Shown here: positions 27,353 to 63,930 of the stretch, one piece after another | Position numbering within the stretch: position 1 is the first letter of the stretch | How the letters are laid out: each line of letters begins with the position of its first letter | Position numbers and translations under genes: made by a program | Source: Candidatus Woesebacteria bacterium | GTDB lineage: Bacteria; Patescibacteriota; Microgenomatia; UBA8517 | DNA length: 64,000 bases | Assembly: GCA_016432525.1 (NCBI GenBank) | Contig: CP066693.1 | Location: 849,639-913,638 of the forward strand | Direction: 5' to 3' | Notes under the pieces: model-generated | Database searches by the model: none | Seen by the model: the letters and a program-made list of their open reading frames with translations, nothing else | Told to the model about the DNA's origin: nothing

Positions 27353-27526
27353 ATGCTTAAGTATTTTAAAGAAGTTCTAGGTGAGTTAAAACAAGTAACA
27401 TGGCCAACTAGATCTGAAACTATAAAACTAACATTTATAGTAATTGCAATTTCAACTATAGTAAGCATTTATCTAGGAGGTCTAGATTTAGGTTTCACTA
27501 AACTATTAGGAATTTTACTAAAATAA
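27353..27526 (+). CDS. secE: preprotein translocase subunit SecE (57 aa, absent from the ORF track)
   Basis: MLKYFKEVLGELKQVTWPTRSETIKLTFIVIAISTIVSIYLGGLDLGFTKLLGILLK. The conserved KVTWPTR motif plus a single TM helix. The stop lies 1 nt before nusG. Confidence 0.75.
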   Translation: MLKYFKEVLGELKQVTWPTRSETIKLTFIVIAISTIVSIYLGGLDLGFTKLLGILLK

Positions 27527-27527
27527 A

Positions 27528-28142
27528 ATGGACGACACAAAAAAAGAATCAGTAGAAGAGCGCGGAACTGGAAAGAAAAAAATTCCAGGCCATATCGTCA
27601 TTTCTCAAACTGAAGACAAAAATGCCAAATGGTATGTAGTTCACACTGCATCAGGCCATGAAGCTCGCGTTTCAGAAAATCTTCGCCAACGCGTTGAAAC
27701 AATGAATCTTCAAAAAAATATCTTCGAACTTCTTATTCCAACTCAGGATAAAGTAATTATTCGTGGTGGTAAAAAATTAAATATCAAAGAAAAAATTTTT
27801 CCAGGATATCTTTTAGTTAAAATGATTTTGGATGACAACTCTTGGCTTGCAGTCAGAACAACCCAGGGAGTTACTGGCTTTGTAGGAACTGGCGATCAGC
27901 CAACTCCTCTGTCAGATTCAGAAGTATCAAATATTCAAAAATTCGTATCATCTCCTGCTCCCCGTTATAAAACCAAACTTTCAGTTGGTGAAGCAGTTAA
28001 AATTACAGATGGTCCATTCACAGATTTCCTTGGAACAATTCATGAAATGGACGAAACAAGAGGAAAAGTAAAAGTATTGGTCTCAATTTTTGGTCGCGAA
28101 ACTCCAGTCGAGCTAGATTTTCTTCAAGTACAAAAAGTTTAA
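27528..28142 (+). CDS. nusG: transcription antitermination factor NusG
   Basis: NGN domain (WYVVHTASGHE...) and KOW (GEAVKITDGPFTDFLGTI). Confidence 0.9.
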   Translation: MDDTKKESVEERGTGKKKIPGHIVISQTEDKNAKWYVVHTASGHEARVSENLRQRVETMNLQKNIFELLIPTQDKVIIRGGKKLNIKEKIFPGYLLVKMILDDNSWLAVRTTQGVTGFVGTGDQPTPLSDSEVSNIQKFVSSPAPRYKTKLSVGEAVKITDGPFTDFLGTIHEMDETRGKVKVLVSIFGRETPVELDFLQVQKV

Positions 28143-28720
28143 GGTTTCTCAAAGACTAAAACATACGATTCTTCCTGAAAAACAGAAAAAACACCTGATC
28201 TTTTTAGATCCACTACTCCTTCTTGACTAAAAATTTTATTTACTCCTTCTCTTCCTCTTCCGTGATATTCCTCTTTTAGGCTAAATCCCGAAGATTCAAA
28301 TACATTCTTCAAATCAATATCCTCACTAAAACCTCTATATCCATACGGGGTATTTGTCTCGAGAATAATCACTTTTCCATCTCTTCGGCAAACCCTAAAC
28401 CATTCTTTTGCTATTTCACTTAAATCTCCTATATTGCCTGATGAAAAATTTAGAGAAAGCTTATATTTATCATTTGGAGGATAATGTGAACCAAAAAAAT
28501 CTTTGCAAAAGATAGAACCAACGGATTCAGCTGCCAAAGGTAGTCTTTGAGCATTGGCAACAAGATCTGTCCCTTTTTTAATTGAAACACCAGGAAAAGA
28601 AGTAGAGTCTTTATCCAATCTAACAACATCTTCAGTTACCAAATCAGGTCTCAGATACTCTGCAAACGAAGTCATTCCTACTCCCACCTCTAAAGTAAAA
28701 TCCTTATCTTCACTCATCAT
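28139..28720 (-). CDS. probable class I SAM-dependent methyltransferase
   Basis: LEVGVGMTSF (motif I-like) and DGKVIILE. The 28753 start in the ORF track is a TTG. The ATG start at 28720 is preferred. Confidence 0.4.
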   Translation of the reverse strand: MMSEDKDFTLEVGVGMTSFAEYLRPDLVTEDVVRLDKDSTSFPGVSIKKGTDLVANAQRLPLAAESVGSIFCKDFFGSHYPPNDKYKLSLNFSSGNIGDLSEIAKEWFRVCRRDGKVIILETNTPYGYRGFSEDIDLKNVFESSGFSLKEEYHGRGREGVNKIFSQEGVVDLKRSGVFSVFQEESYVLVFEKP

Positions 28721-28860
28721 AAAAGTGTATACAAAATTACCATTGAAACACAAGACATAGGGTTCTAATATAGGTTAGAACGCCCTTTTACACTAAGTGG
28801 AGGTGTCCCTGGAAAAAAAATCCTTATCGTCAGTTTCTTGTCGTAAGTAAAGGGGGATAT

Positions 28861-29247
28861 ATGAATCTCAACACGCTTTTCAAGTTGGGAGCAATCCTGC
28901 TCCTCGTAGTCGGGCTCGCCCTTCTTGTCGTTCCAAATGAAGTGGCTAAGCTTGTAGGTATCTCCTACGATTGGCCGCTAACTGATGGTCTGCGAGTAAT
29001 GGGTGGTATGCTCCTTGGGGTAGCCCTTGTCCAGTGGCAGGTCAGCGAATCCAAATCCAAAGACTTCAAGGAAACAGCTATATGGTCTGGCCTTGCAGGC
29101 ACAGTTCTGGGATTTGTAGTTCTATTGACCGCCCAAATCGGTCAGCGCTACAACTGGGTTGCATGGGCACTGGTCGTAATTCTTGGTCTAGGCGCATTGG
29201 GATTCCTATATTATGGAGTCCTCGGCCAGGGCGAAAAGCAAACCTAA
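28861..29247 (+). CDS. small 4-TM membrane protein (GC-rich)
   Basis: RBS AGGGGGA before the ATG. Four hydrophobic helices. Confidence 0.45.
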   Translation: MNLNTLFKLGAILLLVVGLALLVVPNEVAKLVGISYDWPLTDGLRVMGGMLLGVALVQWQVSESKSKDFKETAIWSGLAGTVLGFVVLLTAQIGQRYNWVAWALVVILGLGALGFLYYGVLGQGEKQT

Positions 29248-29323: not shown

Positions 29324-29614
29324 TTATCTACTTTCAGTCTCAACTTCAATTCCACCAGTTCTTCTTGCAATTAAATTATATAAAAAACCCTCCAGTAGTC
29401 CCATTAAAAAACCTATCACTACATACAAAACAGGCATTATCAAAAAAGTTGTTACCAGAAGTGGGGTTGCAGAAACTGGTTTGACAAATCGATATTGCAT
29501 TAGAAAAGTCGCAGAAGAACTCAAAACAGCATTAATTATTCCAAAAACAAAAAAAATAAATGCTTGTACCTTTGCTAAAGACATGGAATTTATGTGTTTA
29601 ATTCTTGTCATCAA
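29324..29614 (-). CDS. small membrane protein
   Basis: Two to three hydrophobic helices. Confidence 0.35.
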   Translation of the reverse strand: MMTRIKHINSMSLAKVQAFIFFVFGIINAVLSSSATFLMQYRFVKPVSATPLLVTTFLIMPVLYVVIGFLMGLLEGFLYNLIARRTGGIEVETESR

Positions 29615-29640: not shown

Positions 29641-30165
29641 TTATGCAACTTTCGTCTGATCAAATGAAAGCCCTTCCTTACTCATCCATATTCCAGGTTC
29701 ACCAGTTTTTCGATCAACAAAAAACTCTACTGAATGTTCGCAATTTTGGGAAAAAACATCTTTATATTTATTTACCAAAAGTTGACATTCCATTTTTAGT
29801 ATTAAATTAGCCATATCGTTGTCAAGAGATGACAATTTAAAATAGTCATAAGAAGCAACACTGCTTCTGAAATAACGTTCCACTTCAGTCCGAAGTATCC
29901 TTATGGAAGAGTTTGTCCTCTTTACAATTCCGCCTTCAGGGGTATCTTCTACTATTTGCCCTAATTCTTTGACTCTTTCATCATTTAATCTCCCAGCAAA
30001 AAACCTAGAAAAAAACAGAGCAGTCAGACCATTTCCTTCTTTCTCACCAGTTTTCGATTTACACTCTTGAATAAAATTACCAATAACATTATCAACTACA
30101 ACATCAGAAGATTGGTCTAAATCTCCTAAAAAATTTATAAATGATTTTCCGTTTTCACTTTGCAT
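29641..30165 (-). CDS. hypothetical cytoplasmic protein
   Basis: 11-bp overlap with the upstream 885-aa gene, consistent with an operon. Confidence 0.4.
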   Translation of the reverse strand: MQSENGKSFINFLGDLDQSSDVVVDNVIGNFIQECKSKTGEKEGNGLTALFFSRFFAGRLNDERVKELGQIVEDTPEGGIVKRTNSSIRILRTEVERYFRSSVASYDYFKLSSLDNDMANLILKMECQLLVNKYKDVFSQNCEHSVEFFVDRKTGEPGIWMSKEGLSFDQTKVA

Positions 30166-32812
30166 ATAATTGCAATCCTTTTTGCAAAGAAGTTAACTCA
30201 TCTGCCTTTACTCCACTGGTTGCAAGGCCTTGCGGATCAAAACCTGAAAAGTCAATAAAATATATTTTTCCATCAGAGCCAACTATTATATTATCAGGGT
30301 TGACAATCTGTCCACTCACAGCAATGTCTCCATGTGCACGACCAGTTACAGTTTGTATTTGTTGCAGTTCTGATACCGCTTGATTTATTTGATCTTGTGT
30401 AAACTTTCCTCCAGCCGTCACATAATCAGCCAACGTCTTCCCTGCTATATAAGATTGCTTATACCCAATAATATTTCCCGTAGCATCATAAACGAAACCT
30501 TCAAAGTTAGGTATACCAGCTTGACCTCCAAACTGTTGATAAAACTTTATCTCATTCTCAGCAGACTGTATTGCAACCTCAGATTGTAATGTTGTATTTT
30601 TAAAAACCTTAACTACAGTTCCAGTCGTGGAATCAACATAAGTATCAGCATAAGCTCCGCTCCCTAATTTAGTTACAGATGTAATTGGGTTTCCTGCTTG
30701 ATCAAACAAAGTCTCCCCTGGTTGATAGGCATAAACTCGGGATTGAAGCTCGGGATTAACGATAACACTTACAGGCACTTCTTCCCATTTACCATTAACT
30801 AACCTTAATGTTAATCCTTGTGACTCTAAATCATTCAAGTAATTTCTAACCGAAGCATCTTTAGCAGCCAAATCTAAAAGTTCAGCATATGTCTTTGCCC
30901 CTGCAACTACTGACTGTGCCGGTTTAGAGAAAAAACTAATTATCGCTTCACGAAATGGACTTAATGCCAAATCAGCCAAAAAAGTCCCCTGAATCCCTGC
31001 TGCAATCGTCTCAGCTCCACAGCCTTCTGGCTTTAATCCTGCATTGGCAAGAGCATTACACTGTGCCCACGCAACAGATGCATCAGTAGTTGAACCTAAA
31101 AGACCAAATGTTACCAAATCGGCAGATTGATACTGCAATAAAAGATATTTTTGCCAGAAAGGAAGGCTTGGATCTTTAAGTATAGCCTCCTGTCTTCGAA
31201 TCCATGACTTTAGACCAATAGATAGTGTTTGAAGACTCAGTCTTTCAAACTGAACAGAAATCGGGTCAGTCGCCTTAGTTTGAGCCTCTTTTATCATATC
31301 AACCTGACTCTGACTGAGATTAGAATTTCCAAATAAAATATCTGCTTGGGATTGTGCACTATATTGTTTATCTGCATAGGAAAAAATTTCACTTATAGAT
31401 TTAGAGCAAACTTGACCAGATTTAATTAAATCCGCAACCCTTCTTGGGTCTGCTCCTTCACCCAATCCAAGCTGGATTGTGCCGGTCTGATTTCCATTTG
31501 CATCGCAAAGGTATATGTATGTTCCTTGAAGATCAGCGCTACTTGATAGAAAACTTAAGTATTTCAAAGGGTCGGATAAAAGAGTTTTCTGGAAAGCTGT
31601 CCTAAACGACGGATCATTGACATTATTAATATTTACCCAAGTACAATTTTGGCCATTTTTATCACAAATATAAACTTCATATCCACCATTCACACTTTTT
31701 CTCACAATTCCATCAAATCCAATAAGACACATTCTCCCAACTCCAACAATTTTTCCATCGCAGCTGCATACTCCAGATCCACCTCCATAATAAGGATCAC
31801 ATATTTGCCCAGGAATAATCTCGTAAATATTTTTTGGCGCAGTTCCACACCAATTCTTACCATTAAATTGGAAAGATGTATTAGCACAACACTTTATACC
31901 ATTTACAACTTCCAAACTATCAGAAACGCAAATAGAAGAAGCTATTGTATTTAAAGGCGGAGGAGTACTGGTAAGTATTTGGTTTATCTGTTGCCTGCTA
32001 CAACAAATAGAAGAGGCGCTATCACATCCCGATCCTCCATTTACAACAGAAAGTCCAACGCTTGCACAGCTTCTTGTAGCAATACACACTCCACCAGCCA
32101 AAGAACAAGCAGCTCCATTTGAAACCAAGGCAGATCCAGGGCTTGTTCCAGGTTTACAAGGACCACCATCTGGAAGCAATCCTCCATTCACAACATGGCA
32201 CAAAGTATTATTAATAGCACAGTCTCCTTCATGTAAACATCCAACAGCTGCATAGGGGACAATATCAGGGTTTGAAGAAATTCCAGTTCCCTCACAGACA
32301 TTATTGACACACGAATATCCGCTACAACATCTACTACCATATTTATCTCCACAAACATCTCCGCCAACTGCACAAACAGGAATTACTTGACCAGTACTAC
32401 AACAATTTTGTCCAAAAGAACATTGCCCTGAAGCGCCTTGCCTTCCTGTATAAGAACACGAAAGTATGTAACAAGACCCTAAACAAGGAGGTGGAGTTGG
32501 TGCAGGAGTTGGTCCCGGATTTACTCCAGGAAAAGTGCCGCCTGGCCTTGAAGGTGGAGCCTGGCATCCTCCACAACCAGTCGAACAATTACTTGCAGGA
32601 GATGTATCAGTATAAGCTTCGCACCAACCACCAGGGTTACATCTATAACAGGTTTTAGGTTTTGGATAATTAAAAGGTGTTGCATTAGGTTTTGGAGTTG
32701 TAGGAACAATTGGAGGTGGAGCAATTGCAGCTCGGGTTAAACTTCCACTGGACAGAAAAAGAAAACTTCCAAGAAGAAAAAGTAAAATGGCAGTAATTTT
32801 TAAATTTCTCAC
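30155..32812 (-). CDS. Cys-rich protein with N-terminal signal peptide/anchor and a C-terminal protein-kinase-like (APH/ChoK-type) domain
   Basis: Signal/anchor, Pro-rich segment and many CxxC/CSTGCGGC clusters. C-terminal LGSGAYADTY ... VVKVFK ... ENEIKFY ... AHGDIAVSGQIVNPDNIIV ... KIYFIDFSG give an ordered kinase-like motif set. Confidence 0.55.
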   Translation of the reverse strand: MRNLKITAILLFLLGSFLFLSSGSLTRAAIAPPPIVPTTPKPNATPFNYPKPKTCYRCNPGGWCEAYTDTSPASNCSTGCGGCQAPPSRPGGTFPGVNPGPTPAPTPPPCLGSCYILSCSYTGRQGASGQCSFGQNCCSTGQVIPVCAVGGDVCGDKYGSRCCSGYSCVNNVCEGTGISSNPDIVPYAAVGCLHEGDCAINNTLCHVVNGGLLPDGGPCKPGTSPGSALVSNGAACSLAGGVCIATRSCASVGLSVVNGGSGCDSASSICCSRQQINQILTSTPPPLNTIASSICVSDSLEVVNGIKCCANTSFQFNGKNWCGTAPKNIYEIIPGQICDPYYGGGSGVCSCDGKIVGVGRMCLIGFDGIVRKSVNGGYEVYICDKNGQNCTWVNINNVNDPSFRTAFQKTLLSDPLKYLSFLSSSADLQGTYIYLCDANGNQTGTIQLGLGEGADPRRVADLIKSGQVCSKSISEIFSYADKQYSAQSQADILFGNSNLSQSQVDMIKEAQTKATDPISVQFERLSLQTLSIGLKSWIRRQEAILKDPSLPFWQKYLLLQYQSADLVTFGLLGSTTDASVAWAQCNALANAGLKPEGCGAETIAAGIQGTFLADLALSPFREAIISFFSKPAQSVVAGAKTYAELLDLAAKDASVRNYLNDLESQGLTLRLVNGKWEEVPVSVIVNPELQSRVYAYQPGETLFDQAGNPITSVTKLGSGAYADTYVDSTTGTVVKVFKNTTLQSEVAIQSAENEIKFYQQFGGQAGIPNFEGFVYDATGNIIGYKQSYIAGKTLADYVTAGGKFTQDQINQAVSELQQIQTVTGRAHGDIAVSGQIVNPDNIIVGSDGKIYFIDFSGFDPQGLATSGVKADELTSLQKGLQLYAK

Positions 32813-32843
32813 CCTTTAACCACTATAAATTAGACCAGATTTC

Positions 32844-32872
32844 TTTACAATAGGCTTAATTTATAATATAAT
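32844..32872 (+). promoter_or_regulatory. sigma70-like promoter TTTACA-N17-TATAAT for rplK, predicting a near-leaderless transcript
   Basis: -35 at 32844-32849 and -10 at 32867-32872. The ATG is at 32881. Confidence 0.35.
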
Positions 32873-32880
32873 TTCATGCT

Positions 32881-33306
32881 ATGGCAGCAAAAAAAGTAAA
32901 AACTATCGTTAAAATTAACCTGAAAGGGGCAGAGGCAACTCCGGCCCCACCTGTTGGTACTGCATTAGGCCAACATGGTATTGCCATTATGGAATTTGTC
33001 AAAGCTTACAACGACAAAACAGCCAGCCTCAAAGGCCAGGTAGTCCCCGCAGTCATCACAATTTACGAAGATCGTTCATTTGATTTTATTATCAAAATGG
33101 CCCCAGTAGCTGATATGATCAAGAAAAAACTAGGAATCGAAAAAGGTTCAGGTAAAGTTCCATCAGTTACAGTCGGCACTCTCACAAAATCTCAAGTCGA
33201 AGAAATAGCCAAAGAAAAAATGCCAGATTTAAATACTGATAATTTAGAGGCAGCAGAAAAAATTGTTGCAGGTACAGCAAGATCGATGGGAGTAAAAATA
33301 GAATGA
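32881..33306 (+). CDS. rplK: 50S ribosomal protein L11
   Basis: MAAKKVKTIVKINLKGAEATPAPPVGTALGQHGI... Confidence 0.95.
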   Translation: MAAKKVKTIVKINLKGAEATPAPPVGTALGQHGIAIMEFVKAYNDKTASLKGQVVPAVITIYEDRSFDFIIKMAPVADMIKKKLGIEKGSGKVPSVTVGTLTKSQVEEIAKEKMPDLNTDNLEAAEKIVAGTARSMGVKIE

Positions 33307-34052
33307 AAAAAGTAAAAGAAGAAAAAAGTTTACCCGCCGACAGAAGGGTCCATATAGCAGGTTTAAAAGGCGGTCAGCGCGTAGTATCAATCTCAGCAGA
33401 ATCAGAACAAAAAGAAACAAAAACTGAAAAAGTGGAGACTAAAAAAGAAACAAAAGAAAAAAAGGAAAGAGCTCGTGGCAAGAAATATCAGAGTTCAAGA
33501 TCAAAAATTGATAAAAACAAATTTTATACAACACCAGATGCAGTCAAAACTTTAAAAGAAATAAGTTATTCCAAATTTGATGAAACAGTCGAACTTCACG
33601 CTCTTGTCAAAAAAGATTCCCTTTCAGTTAATGTCACTCTCCCTCATTCATTTGGCAAATCTAAGGCAATTGAGGTTGCAAACGAAAAAACCATAGAGAA
33701 ACTCGAAAAAGGAAAAGTTGACTTTGATGTTCTTTTATCAACCGCTGATTTCATGCCAAAACTCGTTAAATTCGCAAAAATCCTAGGTCCAAAAGGCCTT
33801 ATGCCAAATCCCAAAAATGGAACACTAATCAAAAAGACATCAGATGCTGACAAATTCGCGTCAAACTCTATGACAATAAAAACCGAGAAAAAAGCTCCTT
33901 TAATTCATACAACAGTAGGAAAACTAAGTATGGATCCAAAAAATCTTGAAGAAAATGTTGAAAGCGCTCTAACAGCAATTAACAAAAGATTAATTCTTAA
34001 AGCCTACTTAAAATCAACAATGAGCCCTTCAATAAAGCTATCACTTAGCTAA
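33303..34052 (+). CDS. rplA: 50S ribosomal protein L1 with a ~55-aa Lys/Glu-rich N-terminal extension
   Basis: L1 homology begins near GKKYQSSRSKIDKNKFYT...FDETVELHA. ATGA overlap with rplK. Confidence 0.85.
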   Translation: MKKVKEEKSLPADRRVHIAGLKGGQRVVSISAESEQKETKTEKVETKKETKEKKERARGKKYQSSRSKIDKNKFYTTPDAVKTLKEISYSKFDETVELHALVKKDSLSVNVTLPHSFGKSKAIEVANEKTIEKLEKGKVDFDVLLSTADFMPKLVKFAKILGPKGLMPNPKNGTLIKKTSDADKFASNSMTIKTEKKAPLIHTTVGKLSMDPKNLEENVESALTAINKRLILKAYLKSTMSPSIKLSLS

Positions 34053-35381
34053 AGGAGTAATCGGATAAACAATAGGAGTACTCTTTTGACCAAATAAAAT
34101 TAAAAGTAAAATTCCAATTCCTAGAAACAAAGTGATAAATATTAAAGTCAAAAACAAATTCGCAATAGAGGCACCCAATCCATATTTTGAATAAATAAAG
34201 GCAGCAGCCCCAAAAATTAAAATTCCATAGACTATCAAAGAAATTACCAAAACCAAAAGAGCAATAAGTGGGAAAAATTGTGAATTAGAATAAATATAAA
34301 AATTTCTGGAAAAATAATTAAATCCTGCAAATATTAATCCTGTATAAAGACTTGCAAATATTGACGATCCCAAACTAACCAAGAAAATAACCACTACTTT
34401 ATTGGTTTTCTCAAAACTTCTACTCTTCAAGATTTTATACAAAACAAATCCAACCAAAGAAACAGTAACTATTACTCCGACAAAAACAGCTATTCCCATT
34501 CCAATTTCTCTGAGGTAAAGTTTTATCTGGCTATCTGCATAAATTCCAGCGACTTTATAAGTTTCGGAAGGTCCCAAAGAAGATGCGTTCTTAATAATAG
34601 CTCCATTACCAATCTGATTATAAAAATTATCAAAACTCGGGCTTGCCGCAGGTGCAGCCGAACCTGCATCCATTTTAAGGCTTGAGACAATCTCATTTGT
34701 TCTATAATTTATCTGCCCCTGTCCACCTTTTAGAAATAAATCAGAGTCAGTTGATATCCCAACCTGCAAATTTTGGATTTTATCATCTACTTTTAAAGTT
34801 TCAAAATTAAAATTCCAAGCTCCCAGTATATTTTTGCTCGCATACCCATTTGCCCTAAAGTAAACAAAAAATGCTCCAGATTTATTTTCTTTAACAGGGG
34901 TAGGTAGGCTAATATTTAATGTATCCCCTTTTAAATTAAAGTCCGCTTTCTGATATTTATTATTTCCGTAATATTGAAAATAATCAGGCTCCTGATACTC
35001 CAAACACGGGGGCTGAATGTAAAGAGTTCCCTGGGGTACTACCCCATATCGAATGCAACTAGGCTCTGCCAGAACTTGATAAACAGTTAAATCGTTTGGG
35101 TTTACTTTTGGAATCTGAAGCTGCATTTCAGAAAGCTGTTTGCTATCCAAATTCGAAAAAACAATCTTGGCAGATACTACTGCCTCCCCATTTCCACGAA
35201 AGGTAACTGAATAGTATTGCGACTGTCCTAAAAAATTAGGATTAGAAGGAGGTCTTCTGACTGGCATTATAGAAGGAGCAATTGTTCCGCTACTTCCAGC
35301 AGATTGAGAATCCTGAGCCAATATCGATCTTGGAAGCAACAAAAAAATGCTAAGTATTATCAAGAATATTTTTTTAACCAT
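34041..35381 (-). CDS. membrane protein: signal peptide, ~280-aa extracytoplasmic domain, C-terminal multi-TM region
   Basis: Hydrophobicity pattern only. Confidence 0.4.
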   Translation of the reverse strand: MVKKIFLIILSIFLLLPRSILAQDSQSAGSSGTIAPSIMPVRRPPSNPNFLGQSQYYSVTFRGNGEAVVSAKIVFSNLDSKQLSEMQLQIPKVNPNDLTVYQVLAEPSCIRYGVVPQGTLYIQPPCLEYQEPDYFQYYGNNKYQKADFNLKGDTLNISLPTPVKENKSGAFFVYFRANGYASKNILGAWNFNFETLKVDDKIQNLQVGISTDSDLFLKGGQGQINYRTNEIVSSLKMDAGSAAPAASPSFDNFYNQIGNGAIIKNASSLGPSETYKVAGIYADSQIKLYLREIGMGIAVFVGVIVTVSLVGFVLYKILKSRSFEKTNKVVVIFLVSLGSSIFASLYTGLIFAGFNYFSRNFYIYSNSQFFPLIALLVLVISLIVYGILIFGAAAFIYSKYGLGASIANLFLTLIFITLFLGIGILLLILFGQKSTPIVYPITPLAK

Positions 35382-35403
35382 TATCTAATTATAAACATCT
35401 AGT

Positions 35404-35796
35404 CTATTCCATTAAAGTATCGTTTGTATAATCTTTTATTAAATTATCCAAAGAAGCCTGTCCTTTACTCTTTTCTTCTACGCTGCCATGCAACAAATCA
35501 TATATATGTAGTATCTGATCCAAATGAACAGAGCCCTCCATATACCATTCCACTACTTTTCTTTTCTTATTTAAAAGTATATGAGTTATGCTTCTTATGG
35601 TAAAATCATGCTCATCATCAAGCTTGGGATCGAATTTTGAACTAATTGATTTAGTCCCTTCCATCACTTCATCCCACCATTCAGGATCAATTTTTTCTAT
35701 AGAAACAACTGGCCAAATTCGTTTGCGCTCGGATGACATATTTGCAATAATCATTGTATCAAATATTGATATGGATGAAGACGTTGCAAGAGACAT
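35404..35796 (-). CDS. hypothetical protein
   Basis: ORF with no recognisable motif. Confidence 0.3.
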   Translation of the reverse strand: MSLATSSSISIFDTMIIANMSSERKRIWPVVSIEKIDPEWWDEVMEGTKSISSKFDPKLDDEHDFTIRSITHILLNKKRKVVEWYMEGSVHLDQILHIYDLLHGSVEEKSKGQASLDNLIKDYTNDTLME

Positions 35797-36049
35797 AAGA
35801 CCTGGTCAAGGTAGAATAGTTTCCAATACTGAAGCTAAACTAAATATGGGGAGAAGCTTCCAAAGAGCAAGACATGAGGGACTAAAATCCAATCCAACAG
35901 AATGGGAAGCAAGTAAACGCCTAGCAAATAAGCCTCCAACCGACAATGAAAGAAAAATCCTTTTTGATGAAAACCCGTCAGATGTTAAAACATATAAAGC
36001 ATCAGGTTTGTCAGATGAAGAAATCTATAATATCTTGAAAAATAGATAG
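35771..36049 (+). CDS. hypothetical small protein (92 aa)
   Basis: Internal ATG at 35771 of the 35588 ORF. Avoids a long antisense overlap. Confidence 0.3.
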   Translation: MDEDVARDIRPGQGRIVSNTEAKLNMGRSFQRARHEGLKSNPTEWEASKRLANKPPTDNERKILFDENPSDVKTYKASGLSDEEIYNILKNR

Positions 36050-56062: not shown

Positions 56063-58537
56063 TTATGGAGCCACTTCCTTCCAAATAACATTGCGCCTTG
56101 ATAGTTGTCTTGGGAAATTTACAATCTGAGTTGGATCATACTGCACAAACTCAGCCGGTGTCGTGTTATTCAAAGCTCCACCCAAATCTCTTTGCAAATT
56201 AACTGTAGTAGCAACAACAGCTCCGTCTACCACAAGCTTCGTGTTTCCAGCCCCAGTATTAAAGCTCCCCCCATTAAAGAATAATCCAGTCAAAGCTGGG
56301 TTATTTCCATTGGTTATAGATTGATCAACATTTGTATTATTCTGAACTATTGCCAAAAAGAAATCAGAAGCGCTATTCAAAGCAATTCTTCCGTTTATAT
56401 TAAGATTGCCTCCTTCAACAAATAGTATTACTTTCCCACTGATAGTTACATTTCCGCTAATCGTTAAATCACCACTACTTTTGTACCATCTATATCCGCC
56501 AGAAGAAGAGCCACCAGTGTTAAATGTAGTATTTGTTGCAGTTGAAGAAGGCAGATTAAAGTTTGCATCAGCCAAAACACTTGATGGTGTCAAGCTTGAA
56601 AAGTAAGCATAGTCATACTGCTTACCCAAATATGAGCTATTGGCATTCCAATTTGTTGAAGAAGGTGATCCTCCAGCTATACCAAGATCCAAATTCCCTC
56701 CATAAGTTGCAACTCCAGGTGAAACTCCAGGACTATTTACAATCAAGCTTGGAGTGCATGCAGGAGTTGTACAAGTAAATGGAATCTTAGATGAAACATT
56801 TCCTCCACCATACACATCCCCATCCCCACATTGCCACCAAGCAATAGCAGGGCAAAGACCAACAGTAACAGTTGCAGATGGTCCAGAAAGAGCTGATATG
56901 GAACAAGCAGGCAAACCCGAAGCCTGAATCCTTGAATAATACGATCCTATTGCCATATTTATAGTTGTGTATGTGCATCCTAAGGCTCCACAACTGAATG
57001 TCGCGGCTGGCAGCATCCCGCTATCAATTATTTGGTTATTAGTAACTGCGTTATAAATTCTTATCTGGTATTGAGTAGCCAAAGGAACTCGATTCCACTT
57101 CCAAGTAACAGATCCAGTACCAGTTGGAGTTGGAGAGCATGTTGAAGCAGGAGGATCAATTGGAGTAGGAGTAGCACATTGTAGAACTGCCACATTTACA
57201 TTTACAGTTGCAGTTGCAGTTCCACCTGAACCTATACAATTCAAGGTATAAAAGGCACTGACCGTCAAATTTGCTGTTTGTTCTGTCCCAGAAGTACTCT
57301 TAGTCCCATTCCAAGCGCCTATTGCACTACACGATGTTGCATTTGTAGTGCTCCAATTTAAAGTTGCAGATGTGCCAGATGGAATAGTTATTGTTGTCCC
57401 AGTTTGAGGCGGAGTACCTCCTGTTGCAGTAAATGTTATTACGGGAAGCGGAGAACAAGTTGATTGAATTTGAGCCTGACTAAATCCAGAAGACTGACCA
57501 GTCGCTTGATTATAAAGAAAACTGTTTCCAACTGCTGCCCAATCACATTTTGGTCTTACTAGTTGGGGATTATTGGTATAATAATAGCCCGTGGCGTCAC
57601 CCGGCTTGCTACCTGTACAATAAGTTGTTCCAGCTCCTCCAGGACAAGAAACTCCCGAAACGAAAGTGCACATGCTCCCTGCACCACAAGGTCCTGCGCA
57701 AGGCTGACCACATTTATACGGAGTATTAGATTTACATAAACATGTTGTTCCTGGCTGAGTATAATCAACACCATCAACTACACAGGTTGGGTTCGCACAT
57801 ACTCCTCCACCACCTGGCAGTGGCTTACAATATACTGCTTCTCCAGAAGTTGATTTTGCACAATCCGCAGTTACTATACAAGGTCCACCACAAATACTAT
57901 TAAGACAACCCAATGGTCCACAACCACTTGGAGGTGGAGTACCAGTACCACCACCAGATGAAGCTGCACAGCAAATTACATCAGTTGAGTTACTACAGTA
58001 TCCAGCTCCAGAAGATGCAGTTCCACCTGAAGCACTACAACTTGCAGATGAAGTACACCAATAAGGTGGTGAACAAGACGGTGTTCCACCTCCACTGGGT
58101 GTTGGAGTAGGAGTAGATCCACCCCCCCCACAAGCAGGACCACTATTTACTAAAACAGAGTCGCAAGGTGCAGCTCCAGGTTGGCAAAGATGTCCGCCAA
58201 CACAATCACCAGGAGCAGTACATCCCGGTGTACCTGTACAACTCACACCACCACAACAACTCGCCGGAGCTGGGCCATTAACATAAGTGGCATCACAAGA
58301 AGTTGCACCCATGGTACAACCAACTGCAAACAAACAACTACAAATTCCTGTTCCTGTCCCGCAACTACTAGCGTAGTCACTATTTATCGAACAAGAACCA
58401 GGTCCAATTTGATTACAACTACTTCCACAAGTCTGAGCATTAACAACCCCAGGTTTTAAAAATAGTCGAACACCAATAAATAAAGCAAAAAGTATGGTAA
58501 AAATATTTATTATTTTGACAAAATTAGTAATTCGCAT
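56063..58537 (-). CDS. large (824 aa) secreted Cys/Gly/Ser/Thr-rich protein with Ig-like middle and a beta-helix-like C-terminal repeat region
   Basis: Signal peptide, ~300 aa of dense Cys/Gly/Thr-rich sequence, and C-terminal ISGNVTISGKVILFVEGGNLNINGRIAL-type repeats. Confidence 0.45.
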   Translation of the reverse strand: MRITNFVKIINIFTILFALFIGVRLFLKPGVVNAQTCGSSCNQIGPGSCSINSDYASSCGTGTGICSCLFAVGCTMGATSCDATYVNGPAPASCCGGVSCTGTPGCTAPGDCVGGHLCQPGAAPCDSVLVNSGPACGGGGSTPTPTPSGGGTPSCSPPYWCTSSASCSASGGTASSGAGYCSNSTDVICCAASSGGGTGTPPPSGCGPLGCLNSICGGPCIVTADCAKSTSGEAVYCKPLPGGGGVCANPTCVVDGVDYTQPGTTCLCKSNTPYKCGQPCAGPCGAGSMCTFVSGVSCPGGAGTTYCTGSKPGDATGYYYTNNPQLVRPKCDWAAVGNSFLYNQATGQSSGFSQAQIQSTCSPLPVITFTATGGTPPQTGTTITIPSGTSATLNWSTTNATSCSAIGAWNGTKSTSGTEQTANLTVSAFYTLNCIGSGGTATATVNVNVAVLQCATPTPIDPPASTCSPTPTGTGSVTWKWNRVPLATQYQIRIYNAVTNNQIIDSGMLPAATFSCGALGCTYTTINMAIGSYYSRIQASGLPACSISALSGPSATVTVGLCPAIAWWQCGDGDVYGGGNVSSKIPFTCTTPACTPSLIVNSPGVSPGVATYGGNLDLGIAGGSPSSTNWNANSSYLGKQYDYAYFSSLTPSSVLADANFNLPSSTATNTTFNTGGSSSGGYRWYKSSGDLTISGNVTISGKVILFVEGGNLNINGRIALNSASDFFLAIVQNNTNVDQSITNGNNPALTGLFFNGGSFNTGAGNTKLVVDGAVVATTVNLQRDLGGALNNTTPAEFVQYDPTQIVNFPRQLSRRNVIWKEVAP

Positions 58538-59573: not shown

Positions 59574-59756
59574 ATTTCCCTCCTGAGAAACAGTTTACCC
59601 TTACGTTAGACGACTCGAAGAAGATTTATCTTCCTCTATAGAGTCGTCTAGCTAATCCTTTGTTATTTCAAAAATTTAAAGAGCTAACCCAATAATTATT
59701 TCTATAGGACATATAATAGTCTCATTCACCTACAAAGTCAAATCCTACAGGATGAA

Positions 59757-59908
59757 ATTGGCAAAAAAAATCCCCCTTTTGGGGGTTTAAGTCCTTCCCC
59801 TTTTTCCTTAAAAGGGAAAAACGCAAACTAGGTTGCGTAATAATTAATTCCATTCTGAGAAACAAGTATAACACACATTTTCAACAGGAAAAAGATAGTC
59901 AAAAGATA
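59757..59908. repeat. copy 1 of a ~150-bp repeated element containing three consecutive hairpins
   Basis: About 99% identical over ~110 bp to 63778..63887. Hairpins CCCCC-TTTT-GGGGG (an intrinsic terminator on the minus strand with an A8/T8 tract), CCCTTTT-TCCTT-AAAAGGG and ACGCAA-ACTAGG-TTGCGT. Confidence 0.7.
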
Positions 59909-60807: not shown

Positions 60808-60990
60808 AAAATATTATAACAAAACTGTGCTTTCTAGTTCTAGTTTTACAGTGGGACAAAGCACTAGATACTAGACAATGGGTGGTGCAAATCCACCCCT
60901 CCCCAAATCTACAAAACAATAAATTTCACTTCAGTTCCAAAAGCTGCAAGAGTTAAAAACTTCCTCCTAGTAATTTCCTTAGACATAAAA

Positions 60991-63695: not shown

Positions 63696-63777
63696 TATTT
63701 AGTTTAACTAAATATTATGGGTCTGATTATATCTTGACTTATATTCGTTGTCAAATTTATATAGGATATTTTATCTA

Positions 63778-63930
63778 ATTGGCAAAAAAAATCCCCCTTT
63801 TGGGGGTTTAAGTCCTTCCCCTTTTTCCTTAAAAAGGAAAAACGCAAACTAGGTTGCGTAATAATTAATTCCATTCTTAAGAAATCAGTATATCACAAAC
63901 CTTCAAGAGGAAAAAGATAGTCAAAAGATA
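63778..63930. repeat. copy 2 of the three-hairpin repeated element
   Basis: See copy 1. Lies 84 bp upstream of the start of the 62007..63695 gene. Confidence 0.7.

What the first reader, a model, noticed from the sequence alone, without database searches (positions are those of the whole stretch)
30155..32812. Cys-rich protein with a signal-peptide-like N-terminus and a complete protein-kinase-like domain at its C-terminus
The N-terminus looks like a signal peptide or signal-anchor, followed by about 250 aa packed with CxxC/CSTGCGGC clusters (likely disulfide-rich or metal-binding). The C-terminal ~160 aa show, in the correct order, a Gly-rich loop (LGSGAYADTY), the beta3 Lys (VVKVFK), the alphaC Glu (ENEIKFY), a catalytic loop of Brenner type (AHGDIAVSGQIVNPDNIIV) and a DFG-like IDFSG. 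Established knowledge: this is the APH/ChoK/eukaryotic-like kinase fold. Extracytoplasmic kinase-fold domains in bacteria are rare (CotH-like). Inference: an extracellular kinase or pseudokinase, perhaps binding a host or partner ligand. The gene is co-transcribed with a small cytoplasmic ORF and sits in an accessory insertion between nusG and rplK.
Basis: partly seen in the sequence, partly recalled or inferred. Interest (0 to 1): 0.6.

Follow-up and report, generated by a model that had tools for sequence, protein, structure and literature searches.

The report
Exported Cys-rich protein ending in kinase
A candidate-phylum (Woesebacteria) bacterium encodes an exported, cysteine-rich 885-residue protein that ends in a stripped-down but apparently active protein-kinase domain of an unclassified family, and its architecture and conserved small partner gene suggest, without proving, a polymorphic-toxin-type effector with its immunity protein.

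Summary
ORF 30155..32812(-) encodes 885 aa. It has one N-terminal hydrophobic leader, no other TM segment, and 42 Cys. The C-terminal ~190 aa are a real kinase fold: AF2 pLDDT 92.5, 1537 PDB kinase matches, and a family profile against PDB sequences at 2e-10.

All catalytic residues (K735, E754, H827-G828-D829, N841, D854) are conserved in about 35 relatives, and kinase dN/dS is 0.067. It is therefore not a pseudokinase. The domain ends 31 aa after the DFG-equivalent Asp, like the minimal NleH/OspG/Bud32 kinases, and fits no Pfam or NCBIfam family.

Relatives put this domain at the extreme C-terminus of large, leader-bearing, Cys-rich metagenomic proteins. The 174-aa downstream ORF has homologues directly downstream in five divergent lineages, four of them with the same 11-nt start/stop overlap. 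One related locus carries tandem paralogues with the same N-terminus but a kinase or an HExxH C-terminus. The upstream helical module also occurs with non-kinase C-termini.

Best reading (confidence about 0.5): a Sec-exported polymorphic-toxin-like effector whose kinase acts in another cell, with a cognate immunity-like partner. Toxicity, delivery and substrate are untested.

The parts
30155..32812 (-). Whole gene: 885-aa exported Cys-rich protein with a C-terminal minimal kinase (GTG start at 32812, stop codon 30155-30157).
32729..32812 (-). N-terminal leader, aa 1-28. Positive n-region (R2, K5), 18-residue hydrophobic core, then SLTRA/A. Either a cleavable signal peptide or a signal anchor. 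It is the only TM-grade segment.
   Evidence: sequence read directly
31613..32728 (-). Pro-rich linker plus Cys-rich modules, aa 29-400. Holds 38 Cys, including CYRC, CSTGCGGC and a C-x6-C-x7-CC-x4-C-x4-C knottin-like spacing at aa 147-173. No Pfam family. Presumed disulfide-bonded extracellular presentation or adhesion region.
   Evidence: dN/dS 0.079 for aa 2-285
31223..31957 (-). Hypervariable central cassette, aa ~286-530. Nucleotide identity to the 78%-identical orthologue is 51-69%, against 85-97% in the flanks. Both dN (0.51) and dS (1.77) are elevated, which indicates replacement by recombination.
30743..31222 (-). Conserved helical 'pre-C-terminal' module, aa ~531-690. Motif W..R.EA..LP..YQxxDLxT(L/F)G...WAQCNA.ANAG.KPEGCG.ET.AAG..GT, with an invariant Cys pair C585/C598. 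Also found in proteins whose C-termini are not kinases.
   Evidence: AF2 model too poor to classify
30158..30715 (-). Minimal protein-kinase-like domain, aa ~700-885. Key residues: G-loop 30656-30664, K735 30608-30610, E754 30551-30553, HGD 30326-30334, N841 30290-30292, D854 30251-30253, E872 30197-30199. A 7-aa insert lies between HGD and N841. Only one helix follows the DFG-equivalent.
29641..30165 (-). Partner gene, 174 aa, no leader or TM. Its ATG lies inside the last codons of the kinase gene (ATGCAAAGTGA, 11-nt overlap), with AAGGA 11 nt upstream. Candidate immunity/neutralising protein.
29324..29614 (-). Third gene on the same strand, 27 nt after the partner: a 96-aa small membrane protein (DUF3566, 24.1 bits against a 22.2 cut-off). 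Conserved in the same position in L001 and L013 only.
32822..32850 (-). Promoter-like hexamers (TTGTAA-17-TATAGT) in the 68-nt divergent spacer shared with rplK. Weak evidence: the number of such sites in the region is no higher than in shuffles.

Best explanation
The gene encodes a Sec-exported (or N-terminally anchored) modular effector built like a polymorphic toxin. It has a leader, a disulfide-rich presentation/adhesion region, an exchangeable central cassette that probably sets target specificity, a conserved helical pre-C-terminal module, and at the very C-terminus a catalytically competent minimal protein kinase of a previously unclassified family.

The proposed mechanism is that the kinase module reaches the cytoplasm of another cell, either a competitor or the host bacterium of this episymbiotic-lineage organism. 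There it uses the target's ATP to phosphorylate an essential component. The translationally coupled 174-aa cytoplasmic partner binds and neutralises the kinase in the producer and its kin.

Shown here: the kinase fold, conservation of the catalytic residues, export topology, purifying selection, partner linkage across lineages, and modular swapping of C-termini.

Inferred only: toxicity, the immunity function of the partner, the route of entry and the substrate.
For: Fold and catalytic competence
- AF2 pLDDT 92.5. Foldseek finds 1537 PDB matches at E <= 1e-3, and all 50 listed are protein kinases. Profile against PDB sequences: CK2a 2e-10, YabT 1e-9, NleH2 3.7e-9.
- K, E/Q, HGD, N and D are the most conserved columns across the 35 aligned family sequences.
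- dN/dS is 0.067, against 0.045 for rplK and 0.089 for rplA.

Export
- There is a single N-terminal hydrophobic segment, and 40 of the 42 Cys lie before aa 470.

Position of the domain
- An exhaustive phmmer search with local mapping shows that the HGD-type domain ends within 0-90 residues of the C-terminus in most large relatives (684-2803 aa). Most of these have an N-terminal hydrophobic leader and 5-9% Cys upstream.

Partner
- Homologues lie directly downstream in the window/L001, L013 (36% id, E 5e-29), L005 (E 3e-8; 7e-11 to L013), L009 (3e-5) and L011 (2-4e-5).
- The kinase domains in these loci are only ~24-51% identical to the window's.
- The 11-nt ATG/stop overlap is conserved in four lineages.
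- The partner diverges faster than the kinase (36% against 51% identity to L013).

Polymorphism
- L005 has tandem paralogues that share the N-terminal ~345-430 aa. One ends in an HExxH region followed by its own 224-aa ORF. The other ends in the kinase followed by the partner.
- The pre-C-terminal module recurs in P0014 and P0025 with non-kinase C-termini.

Context
- The window gene lies in an accessory insertion between nusG and rplK.
- Related loci sit next to MazE/PIN, Phd, AbiEii, Fic and a Y1 transposase.

Fit to the published template
- The Sec-dependent polymorphic-toxin template is signal peptide, central presentation region, pre-toxin domain, C-terminal toxin, immunity gene downstream. 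That paper also lists kinase toxin domains (PMC3482391).
Against: - No toxicity, binding or kinase assay exists.
- No recognisable translocation, RHS, HINT or releasing-peptidase domain was found, so how a Sec-exported domain would enter another cell is unknown.
- Between the two sequenced alleles, the C-terminal kinase and the partner are conserved while the centre varies. This is the reverse of classical strain-level toxin/immunity polymorphism.
- No paralogue with another C-terminus occurs in these 64 kb.
- The partner is not universal. In L004, L007 and L012 the downstream gene is a membrane-anchored SIMPL protein. In L008 and L010 the downstream ORFs show no homology to the partner.
- The partner and the pre-C-terminal module match no known immunity or pre-toxin family.
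- Short, leaderless, stand-alone members of the kinase family also exist, so the domain is not restricted to exported proteins.
Confidence: 0.5

Rival explanations
1. Extracellular or surface-displayed kinase. The protein stays on or near the producer's surface and phosphorylates extracellular proteins, glycans or host-surface molecules. The partner is a cytoplasmic regulator or holding chaperone.
For: A Sec-type leader and a Cys-rich ectodomain. No translocation machinery was recognised. Extracytoplasmic SIMPL proteins recur next to relatives. Secreted kinases such as CotH exist (general knowledge).
Against: ATP is scarce outside cells. A leaderless partner with a conserved translational overlap is hard to explain for an enzyme that works only outside. 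The same scaffolds carry alternative C-terminal enzymes, each with its own downstream gene. There is no CotH or secretory-kinase signature.
Confidence: 0.17
2. Non-lethal host-manipulating effector of an episymbiont. The kinase is delivered into the host bacterium to reprogram it, as NleH/OspG do in eukaryotic cells. The partner is a secretion chaperone or activity timer rather than an immunity protein.
For: The organism belongs to the Patescibacteria/Microgenomates group, whose cultivated members live as epibionts (PMC13622651). The minimal kinase fold is shared with T3SS effectors that lack subdomains VIII-XI (PMC12756638). The N-terminus and kinase are strongly conserved while the centre is swapped, which fits specificity switching.
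Against: The lifestyle of this Woesebacteria genome is not known. No host or delivery apparatus was identified here. Sequence data alone cannot separate this reading from the toxin reading.
Confidence: 0.2
3. Small-molecule kinase of the wider PKL superfamily (APH/ChoK/Kdo-like) that modifies an envelope precursor, lipid, sugar or antibiotic rather than a protein.
For: Some family members hit APH, Kdo, EcKL and ABC1 models weakly. The substrate-binding subdomains VIII-XI of protein kinases are absent.
Against: The best profile and structural matches are protein Ser/Thr kinases and NleH. The Gly-rich loop and the HGD...N...D arrangement follow the Bud32/RIO/NleH pattern, and those enzymes act on proteins.
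Confidence: 0.08

Closest known systems
NleH1/NleH2 and OspG (type III secretion effector kinases of E. coli and Shigella)
   Same: A minimal kinase fold that stops soon after the DFG-equivalent and lacks subdomains VIII-XI (PMC12756638; model). The family profile aligns to almost the whole NleH2 crystal construct, E 3.7e-9, chain residues 5-144 of 167. The domain sits at the C-terminus of an exported effector.
   Different: It scores 17-20 bits against the NleH equivalog cut-off of 450. It has a Sec-type leader and a Cys-rich ectodomain instead of a T3SS signal. It comes from a candidate-phylum bacterium with no sign of a eukaryotic host. It has a 7-aa insert in the catalytic loop and a conserved downstream partner gene.
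Polymorphic toxin systems, Sec-dependent class (Zhang, Aravind et al. 2012, PMC3482391), e.g. MafB/MafI; also their 'Tox-Peptide Kinase'
   Same: The layout is leader, presentation region, pre-toxin-like module, then a C-terminal enzymatic domain, with a small gene immediately downstream. Constant N-termini carry alternative C-termini in tandem paralogues (L005). The neighbourhoods are accessory or conflict-type.
   Different: None of the published trafficking, pre-toxin, toxin or immunity families is detectable. Tox-Peptide Kinase is LanL-related with other motifs (DxH, YKP[KR], DxHxEN) and uses the PVC route. Here the inter-strain variable part is the centre, not the toxin/immunity end.
Bud32 / RIO atypical kinases
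   Same: An HGD catalytic triplet instead of HRD, no Lys at D+2, an ID(F/Y)xG metal-binding motif, no activation loop, and about 190-200 residues. Weak NCBIfam hits to Bud32 (E 1e-3 for the window domain, 1.3e-7 for the best family member).
   Different: Far below the cut-offs (18.5 against 125 bits). Bud32 and RIO are cytoplasmic housekeeping proteins (KEOPS, ribosome maturation), not C-terminal modules of exported proteins.
Hanks-type bacterial receptor kinases (PknB/Stk1/YabT)
   Same: They are the best structural and pairwise matches: PknB Foldseek 2e-7, YabT phmmer 1.6e-3 and profile 1.3e-9.
   Different: The topology is opposite: those have an N-terminal cytoplasmic kinase, then a TM segment, then an extracellular sensor. 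They have a full C-lobe with an activation loop. Pfam Pkinase scores 12.8-17.2 bits against a gathering score of 31.7.

Membership tests
Protein-kinase-like (PKL) superfamily | Bilobal kinase fold: N-lobe beta-sheet with alphaC, hinge, then catalytic and Mg-binding loops | tested here: met
   AF2 pLDDT 92.5, pTM 0.86, with the expected order of strands and helices. Foldseek finds 1537 PDB matches at E <= 1e-3, top PknB at 2e-7.
Protein-kinase-like (PKL) superfamily | Catalytic residues: Gly-rich loop, beta3 Lys, alphaC Glu, HxD...N catalytic loop, DFG Asp | tested here: met
   G717/G719, K735, E754, H827-G828-D829, N841 and D854 are all present and are the most conserved columns of the 35-sequence family alignment. 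The D-to-N spacing is 12 instead of 5.
Pfam Pkinase (PF00069), canonical eukaryotic-type protein kinase domain | Score above the gathering threshold, and subdomains VIII-XI present (activation segment, APE, alphaF-alphaI) | tested here: not met
   12.8 bits (whole protein) and 17.2 bits (domain) against 31.7; only profile positions 3-142 of 263 are matched. The protein ends 31 residues after D854, with a single helix.
NleH/OspG effector kinase family | Minimal fold lacking subdomains VIII-XI | tested here: met
   definition taken from PMC12756638
NleH/OspG effector kinase family | Sequence membership (NCBIfam NF041316 equivalog) and a T3SS-dependent N-terminal region | tested here: not met
   17.4-20.1 bits against a cut-off of 450. 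The N-terminus is a Sec-type hydrophobic leader.
Polymorphic toxin system (Sec-dependent class) | N-terminal export signal and an enzymatic domain at the extreme C-terminus | tested here: met
Polymorphic toxin system (Sec-dependent class) | The same N-terminal or pre-toxin scaffold combined with alternative C-terminal domains | tested here: met
   Met in relatives: the L005 tandem paralogues, and the mid-module in P0014 and P0025. Not seen within this 64-kb window.
Polymorphic toxin system (Sec-dependent class) | A cognate immunity gene immediately downstream that neutralises the toxin | tested here: inconclusive
   A conserved, translationally coupled downstream gene occurs in five lineages. 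It is absent or replaced in five other loci. Neutralisation cannot be tested with these tools.
Polymorphic toxin system (Sec-dependent class) | Toxicity of the C-terminal domain to target cells | not testable with these tools
   Needs expression and competition assays.
   No CotH hit at E <= 1 in Pfam for the protein, or at E <= 0.01 for 35 relatives.
Bud32 / RIO | Family model score above the cut-off | tested here: not met
   TIGR03724 scores 14.6-18.5 bits against 125. RIO1 is hit by only 3 of 35 members at E >= 1e-3.

The most novel reading that the evidence does not exclude
This would be the founding example of a bacterium-to-bacterium effector kinase family. Candidate-phyla (Patescibacteria) cells would export modular Cys-rich proteins whose C-terminal minimal kinase enters the host or a competitor bacterium and phosphorylates a key target. 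A dedicated cytoplasmic inhibitor would protect the producer, and a swappable central cassette would set the target range. That would be an interbacterial counterpart of NleH/OspG and a first molecular handle on how these ultra-small bacteria act on their partners.
Probability: 0.25. Interest if true: 0.8.

Novelty: new variant of a known kind. Interest (0 to 1): 0.6.

Why it matters
Candidate-phyla-radiation bacteria make up a large share of bacterial diversity, yet almost nothing is known about the molecules they use on neighbouring cells. This locus defines three linked, unannotated families that travel together in metagenomes: a minimal HGD-type kinase, a helical pre-C-terminal module and a ~175-225-aa partner. 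All are ordinary cloning targets.

If the kinase is a delivered toxin or effector, it adds protein phosphorylation by a minimal kinase to the short list of interbacterial toxin chemistries. It would also give a tractable pair (kinase plus inhibitor) for biochemical work and for finding the cellular target.

If instead it acts outside the cell, it would be a rare bacterial ecto-kinase. Either outcome is informative, and the decisive experiments are simple.

Tried and rejected
Readings rejected
- Additional TM helices that would put the kinase in the cytoplasm: none found. The most hydrophobic later helix averages KD ~1.0 and contains charged residues (and my own hand calculation).
- Pseudokinase: rejected on conservation of the catalytic residues and on dN/dS.
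- Diversity-generating retroelement as the cause of the variable centre: no template/variable repeat anywhere in the 64 kb. The divergent tract is ~730 nt with indels and elevated dS.
- Phage or viral origin: no tblastn hit in 50,697 phage records and no relative in IMG/VR.
- Lanthipeptide-synthetase-type kinase (Cys-rich protein plus kinase): only weak LanKC/LanL hits, no lyase or cyclase, and an export leader is present.
- The partner as a divergent SIMPL protein: no similarity.

Searches that led nowhere
- The search for homologous proteins returned nothing with the C-terminal domain or with the family alignment.
- The search for related loci found nothing in genome contigs or metagenome contigs. 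One hand-made degenerate pattern recovered a single useful locus, L013.
- The AF2 model of the mid module was too poor to search with (pLDDT 52).
- PDB sequence searches with the partner profile and with the alternative C-termini of P0014 and P0025 gave nothing.
- Literature searches found no description of this family.
Full report
**1. What is in the sequence**

It is identical to an NCBI 'hypothetical protein' from a Candidatus Woesebacteria metagenome-assembled genome, which belongs to the Patescibacteria / Microgenomates group.

- A Kyte-Doolittle scan finds one TM-grade hydrophobic segment, aa 4-22. It is preceded by R2 and K5 and followed by SLTRA/AIAPPP.
- 42 cysteines are present, 38 of them between aa 55 and 390.
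- The flanking genes are secE and nusG (27353..28142) on one side and rplK and rplA (32881..34052) on the other. The gene therefore lies in a 4.7-kb insertion in an otherwise conserved cluster.

**2. Is the C-terminus really a kinase?**

Single-sequence searches are only suggestive: Pfam Pkinase E 0.08, NCBIfam NleH 2.4e-3, MAD6 1.4e-3, Bud32 1.8e-2, PDB YabT 1.6e-3. A PADLOC Ser/Thr-kinase model reaches 7e-8 over aa 714-855.

An exhaustive phmmer search of 1.84 billion representatives with aa 401-885 gave 82 hits. I aligned 35 C-terminal domains from these hits (A3).

- The A3 profile hits 341 PDB kinase sequences at E <= 1e-3. The best are CK2alpha 2e-10, YabT 1.3e-9 and NleH2 3.7e-9.
- AlphaFold2 on A3 gives a confident model: pLDDT 92.5, pTM 0.86.
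- Foldseek finds 1537 PDB matches at E <= 1e-3, and all 50 listed are protein kinases, with PknB at the top at 2e-7.

**3. Active or dead?**

The most conserved columns of the family alignment are the GxG loop, the beta3 Lys (K735), an E/Q at the alphaC position (E754), H827-G828-D829, N841, the metal-binding D854 and a Glu in the last helix (E872).

I compared the gene with its only full-length homologue, P0002 (78% identical, same synteny). The kinase domain has dN/dS 0.067. That is in the range of rplK (0.045) and rplA (0.089) from the same two genomes. This is the signature of a working enzyme, not a pseudokinase.

Two features are unusual:
- A 7-residue insert lies between HGD and the catalytic Asn. 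Across the family this insert varies from 0 to about 20 residues.
- The domain ends 31 residues after D854 with a single helix, so subdomains VIII-XI are missing. This is the 'minimal kinase' condition described for NleH and OspG (PMC12756638). Bud32 and RIO show it too, from general knowledge.

No Pfam or NCBIfam family is reached. Hits are scattered over Hanks kinases, NleH, Bud32, LanKC/LanL, Kdo and APH, all far below their cut-offs. It is an unclassified family within the protein-kinase-like superfamily.

**4. Where the family occurs**

In the hit list the HGD-type domain usually ends within 0-90 residues of the C-terminus of large proteins (684-2803 aa). Most of these begin with a hydrophobic leader and are 5-9% Cys upstream of the kinase. 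A second set consists of short, leaderless stand-alone proteins. Ordinary HRD-type Hanks kinases with the opposite topology appear only at the bottom of the list. All ten members I looked up are singleton metagenomic clusters.

**5. The partner gene**

The 174-aa ORF at 29641..30165 has no leader. It starts inside the last codons of the kinase gene (ATGCAAAGTGA, an 11-nt overlap) and has an AAGGA 11 nt upstream.

I fetched the genomic context of ten relatives and one further locus through a degenerate DNA pattern (L013). Homologues of the partner lie immediately downstream in five lineages whose kinase domains are only ~24-51% identical to the window's:

| Locus | Downstream ORF | Similarity to the window partner family |
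|---|---|---|
| window / L001 | 174 aa | 89% identical between the two |
| L013 | 187 aa | 36% id, E 5e-29 |
| L005 | 227 aa | E 3e-8 to the window; 7e-11 to L013 |
| L009 | 186 aa | E 3e-5 |
| L011 | 194 aa | E 2-4e-5 |

The 11-nt ATG/stop overlap is preserved in the window, L001, L013 and L005.

The partner diverges faster than the kinase (36% against 51% identity to L013; dN/dS 0.23 against 0.067). It matches no Pfam family and no solved structure.

A third gene, a 96-aa DUF3566-type membrane protein at 29324..29614, follows in the window, L001 and L013 only.

The linkage is not universal:
- In L004, L007 and L012 the downstream gene is a membrane-anchored SIMPL protein.
- In L008 and L010 the downstream ORFs (188 and 156 aa) show no homology to the partner.

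**6. Modularity**

Three observations point to a cassette-like design.

- Mosaic alleles. Between the window and L001, the N-terminal third and the C-terminal 350 aa are 85-97% identical at the DNA level. Most of these stretches are more conserved than the flanking ribosomal-protein genes (81-88%). In contrast, aa ~286-530 are only 51-69% identical, with indels, and both dN (0.51) and dS (1.77) are elevated. That indicates replacement by recombination rather than merely faster evolution.
- A shared mid module. The conserved helical module upstream of the kinase (aa ~531-690, with an invariant Cys pair C585/C598) recurs in P0008, which also ends in a kinase. It also recurs in P0014 and P0025, whose C-termini are unrelated; P0025 carries an HELVH motif.
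- Tandem paralogues. In L005 two adjacent genes share the leader and the Cys-rich N-terminus, with blocks ~90% identical (58% over 430 aligned columns once gaps are counted) and whole Cys-rich modules inserted or deleted. One ends in an HExxH region (weak Peptidase_M90 hit, E 1.8e-4) followed by its own 224-aa ORF. The other ends in the kinase followed by the partner.

Related loci lie beside MazE/PIN, Phd, AbiEii, Fic and a Y1 transposase.

**7. Interpretation**

The layout is leader, presentation region, pre-toxin-like module, a C-terminal enzyme at the very end, a small coupled gene downstream, and alternative C-termini on a constant scaffold. This is the template of Sec-dependent polymorphic toxins. 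The paper that defines the template also notes kinase toxin domains, although its 'Tox-Peptide Kinase' is LanL-like with different motifs (PMC3482391).

A kinase needs ATP, which argues for action inside a cell rather than outside. A leaderless partner fits a cytoplasmic neutraliser. My best explanation, at about 0.5 confidence, is therefore a delivered effector/toxin kinase with a cognate immunity-like partner.

The main weaknesses are these:
- There are no functional data.
- The entry route is unknown.
- The partner is not universal.
- The strain-level variation is in the centre of the protein, not at the toxin/immunity end. That pattern looks more like receptor-specificity switching, as in colicins or tail fibres (general knowledge).

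Rivals are a genuine ecto-kinase (0.17), a non-lethal host-modulating effector whose partner is a chaperone (0.20), and a small-molecule kinase (0.08).

**8. Novelty and verdict**

The fold is known, and so is the concept of a modular exported toxin/effector. The following appear undescribed in the libraries and papers I could search:
- the kinase family itself;
- its pre-C-terminal module;
- its partner family;
- their joint deployment in candidate-phyla bacteria.

I classify the finding as a new variant of a known kind, with interest 0.6. Its mechanism remains inferred.

Noticed in passing
L004 6580-7242, L007 3659-4321, L012 3497-4393 (directly downstream); L008 3308-3985 (directly upstream); L010 5580-6392: A membrane-anchored SIMPL (PF04402) gene lies next to the kinase-bearing gene in 5 of 10 related loci. 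No SIMPL gene is detectable in the window. This may be a second kind of functional partner or just lineage synteny.
   Followed up: partly
window 31223-31957: The central cassette of the gene is far more diverged from its orthologue than the flanking ribosomal-protein genes are (dS 1.77 against 0.3-0.85), while both ends of the gene are conserved. This indicates a recombinational swap of an internal module.
   Followed up: yes
window 34041-36049: There is a second insertion in the ribosomal-protein cluster, between rplA and rplJ. It holds a 446-aa ORF (34041-35381, minus strand) with a signal peptide and a C-terminal multi-TM region, plus a 130-aa ORF (35404-35796). Neither has a Pfam match.
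   Followed up: partly
window 56063-58537 (minus strand): A second leader-bearing Cys-rich protein is encoded here (824 aa, 51 Cys in the first ~560 aa). It has a beta-rich C-terminal region (weak DUF7305 hit) and no kinase. Disulfide-rich N-terminal modules therefore seem to be a general feature of this organism's large exported proteins.
   Followed up: partly
window 59756-59908 and 63777-63930: Direct repeats lie about 4 kb apart: 101 nt at 99% identity, then 51 nt at 86%. Further repeats are at 60932/61920 and 61406/62425. This may be a duplicated or mobile segment.
   Followed up: no
L005 122-2269 and 2282-2956: A tandem paralogue of the kinase-bearing protein has the same N-terminus but an HExxH (THEIAHS) C-terminal region. 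It is followed by its own 224-aa ORF, which has a C-terminal TM helix. This may be a second effector/partner pair.
   Followed up: partly
N-termini of P0007, P0019, P0022, P0024, P0026, P0031, P0033, P0038 and window aa 1-30: Many large relatives share a leader made of a TM helix followed by a ..Q[DE]IR[SKR]xA.. type motif. The window has SLTRAA in that position. This could be a lineage-specific processing or sorting signal.
   Followed up: no
window 28139-28753 (minus strand) and 28861-29247 (plus strand): The rest of the nusG-rplK insertion encodes a small class-I methyltransferase (Methyltransf_11, E 3e-5) and a 128-aa membrane protein (labelled DUF8292 in the public record). Any relation to the kinase operon is unknown.
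   Followed up: no
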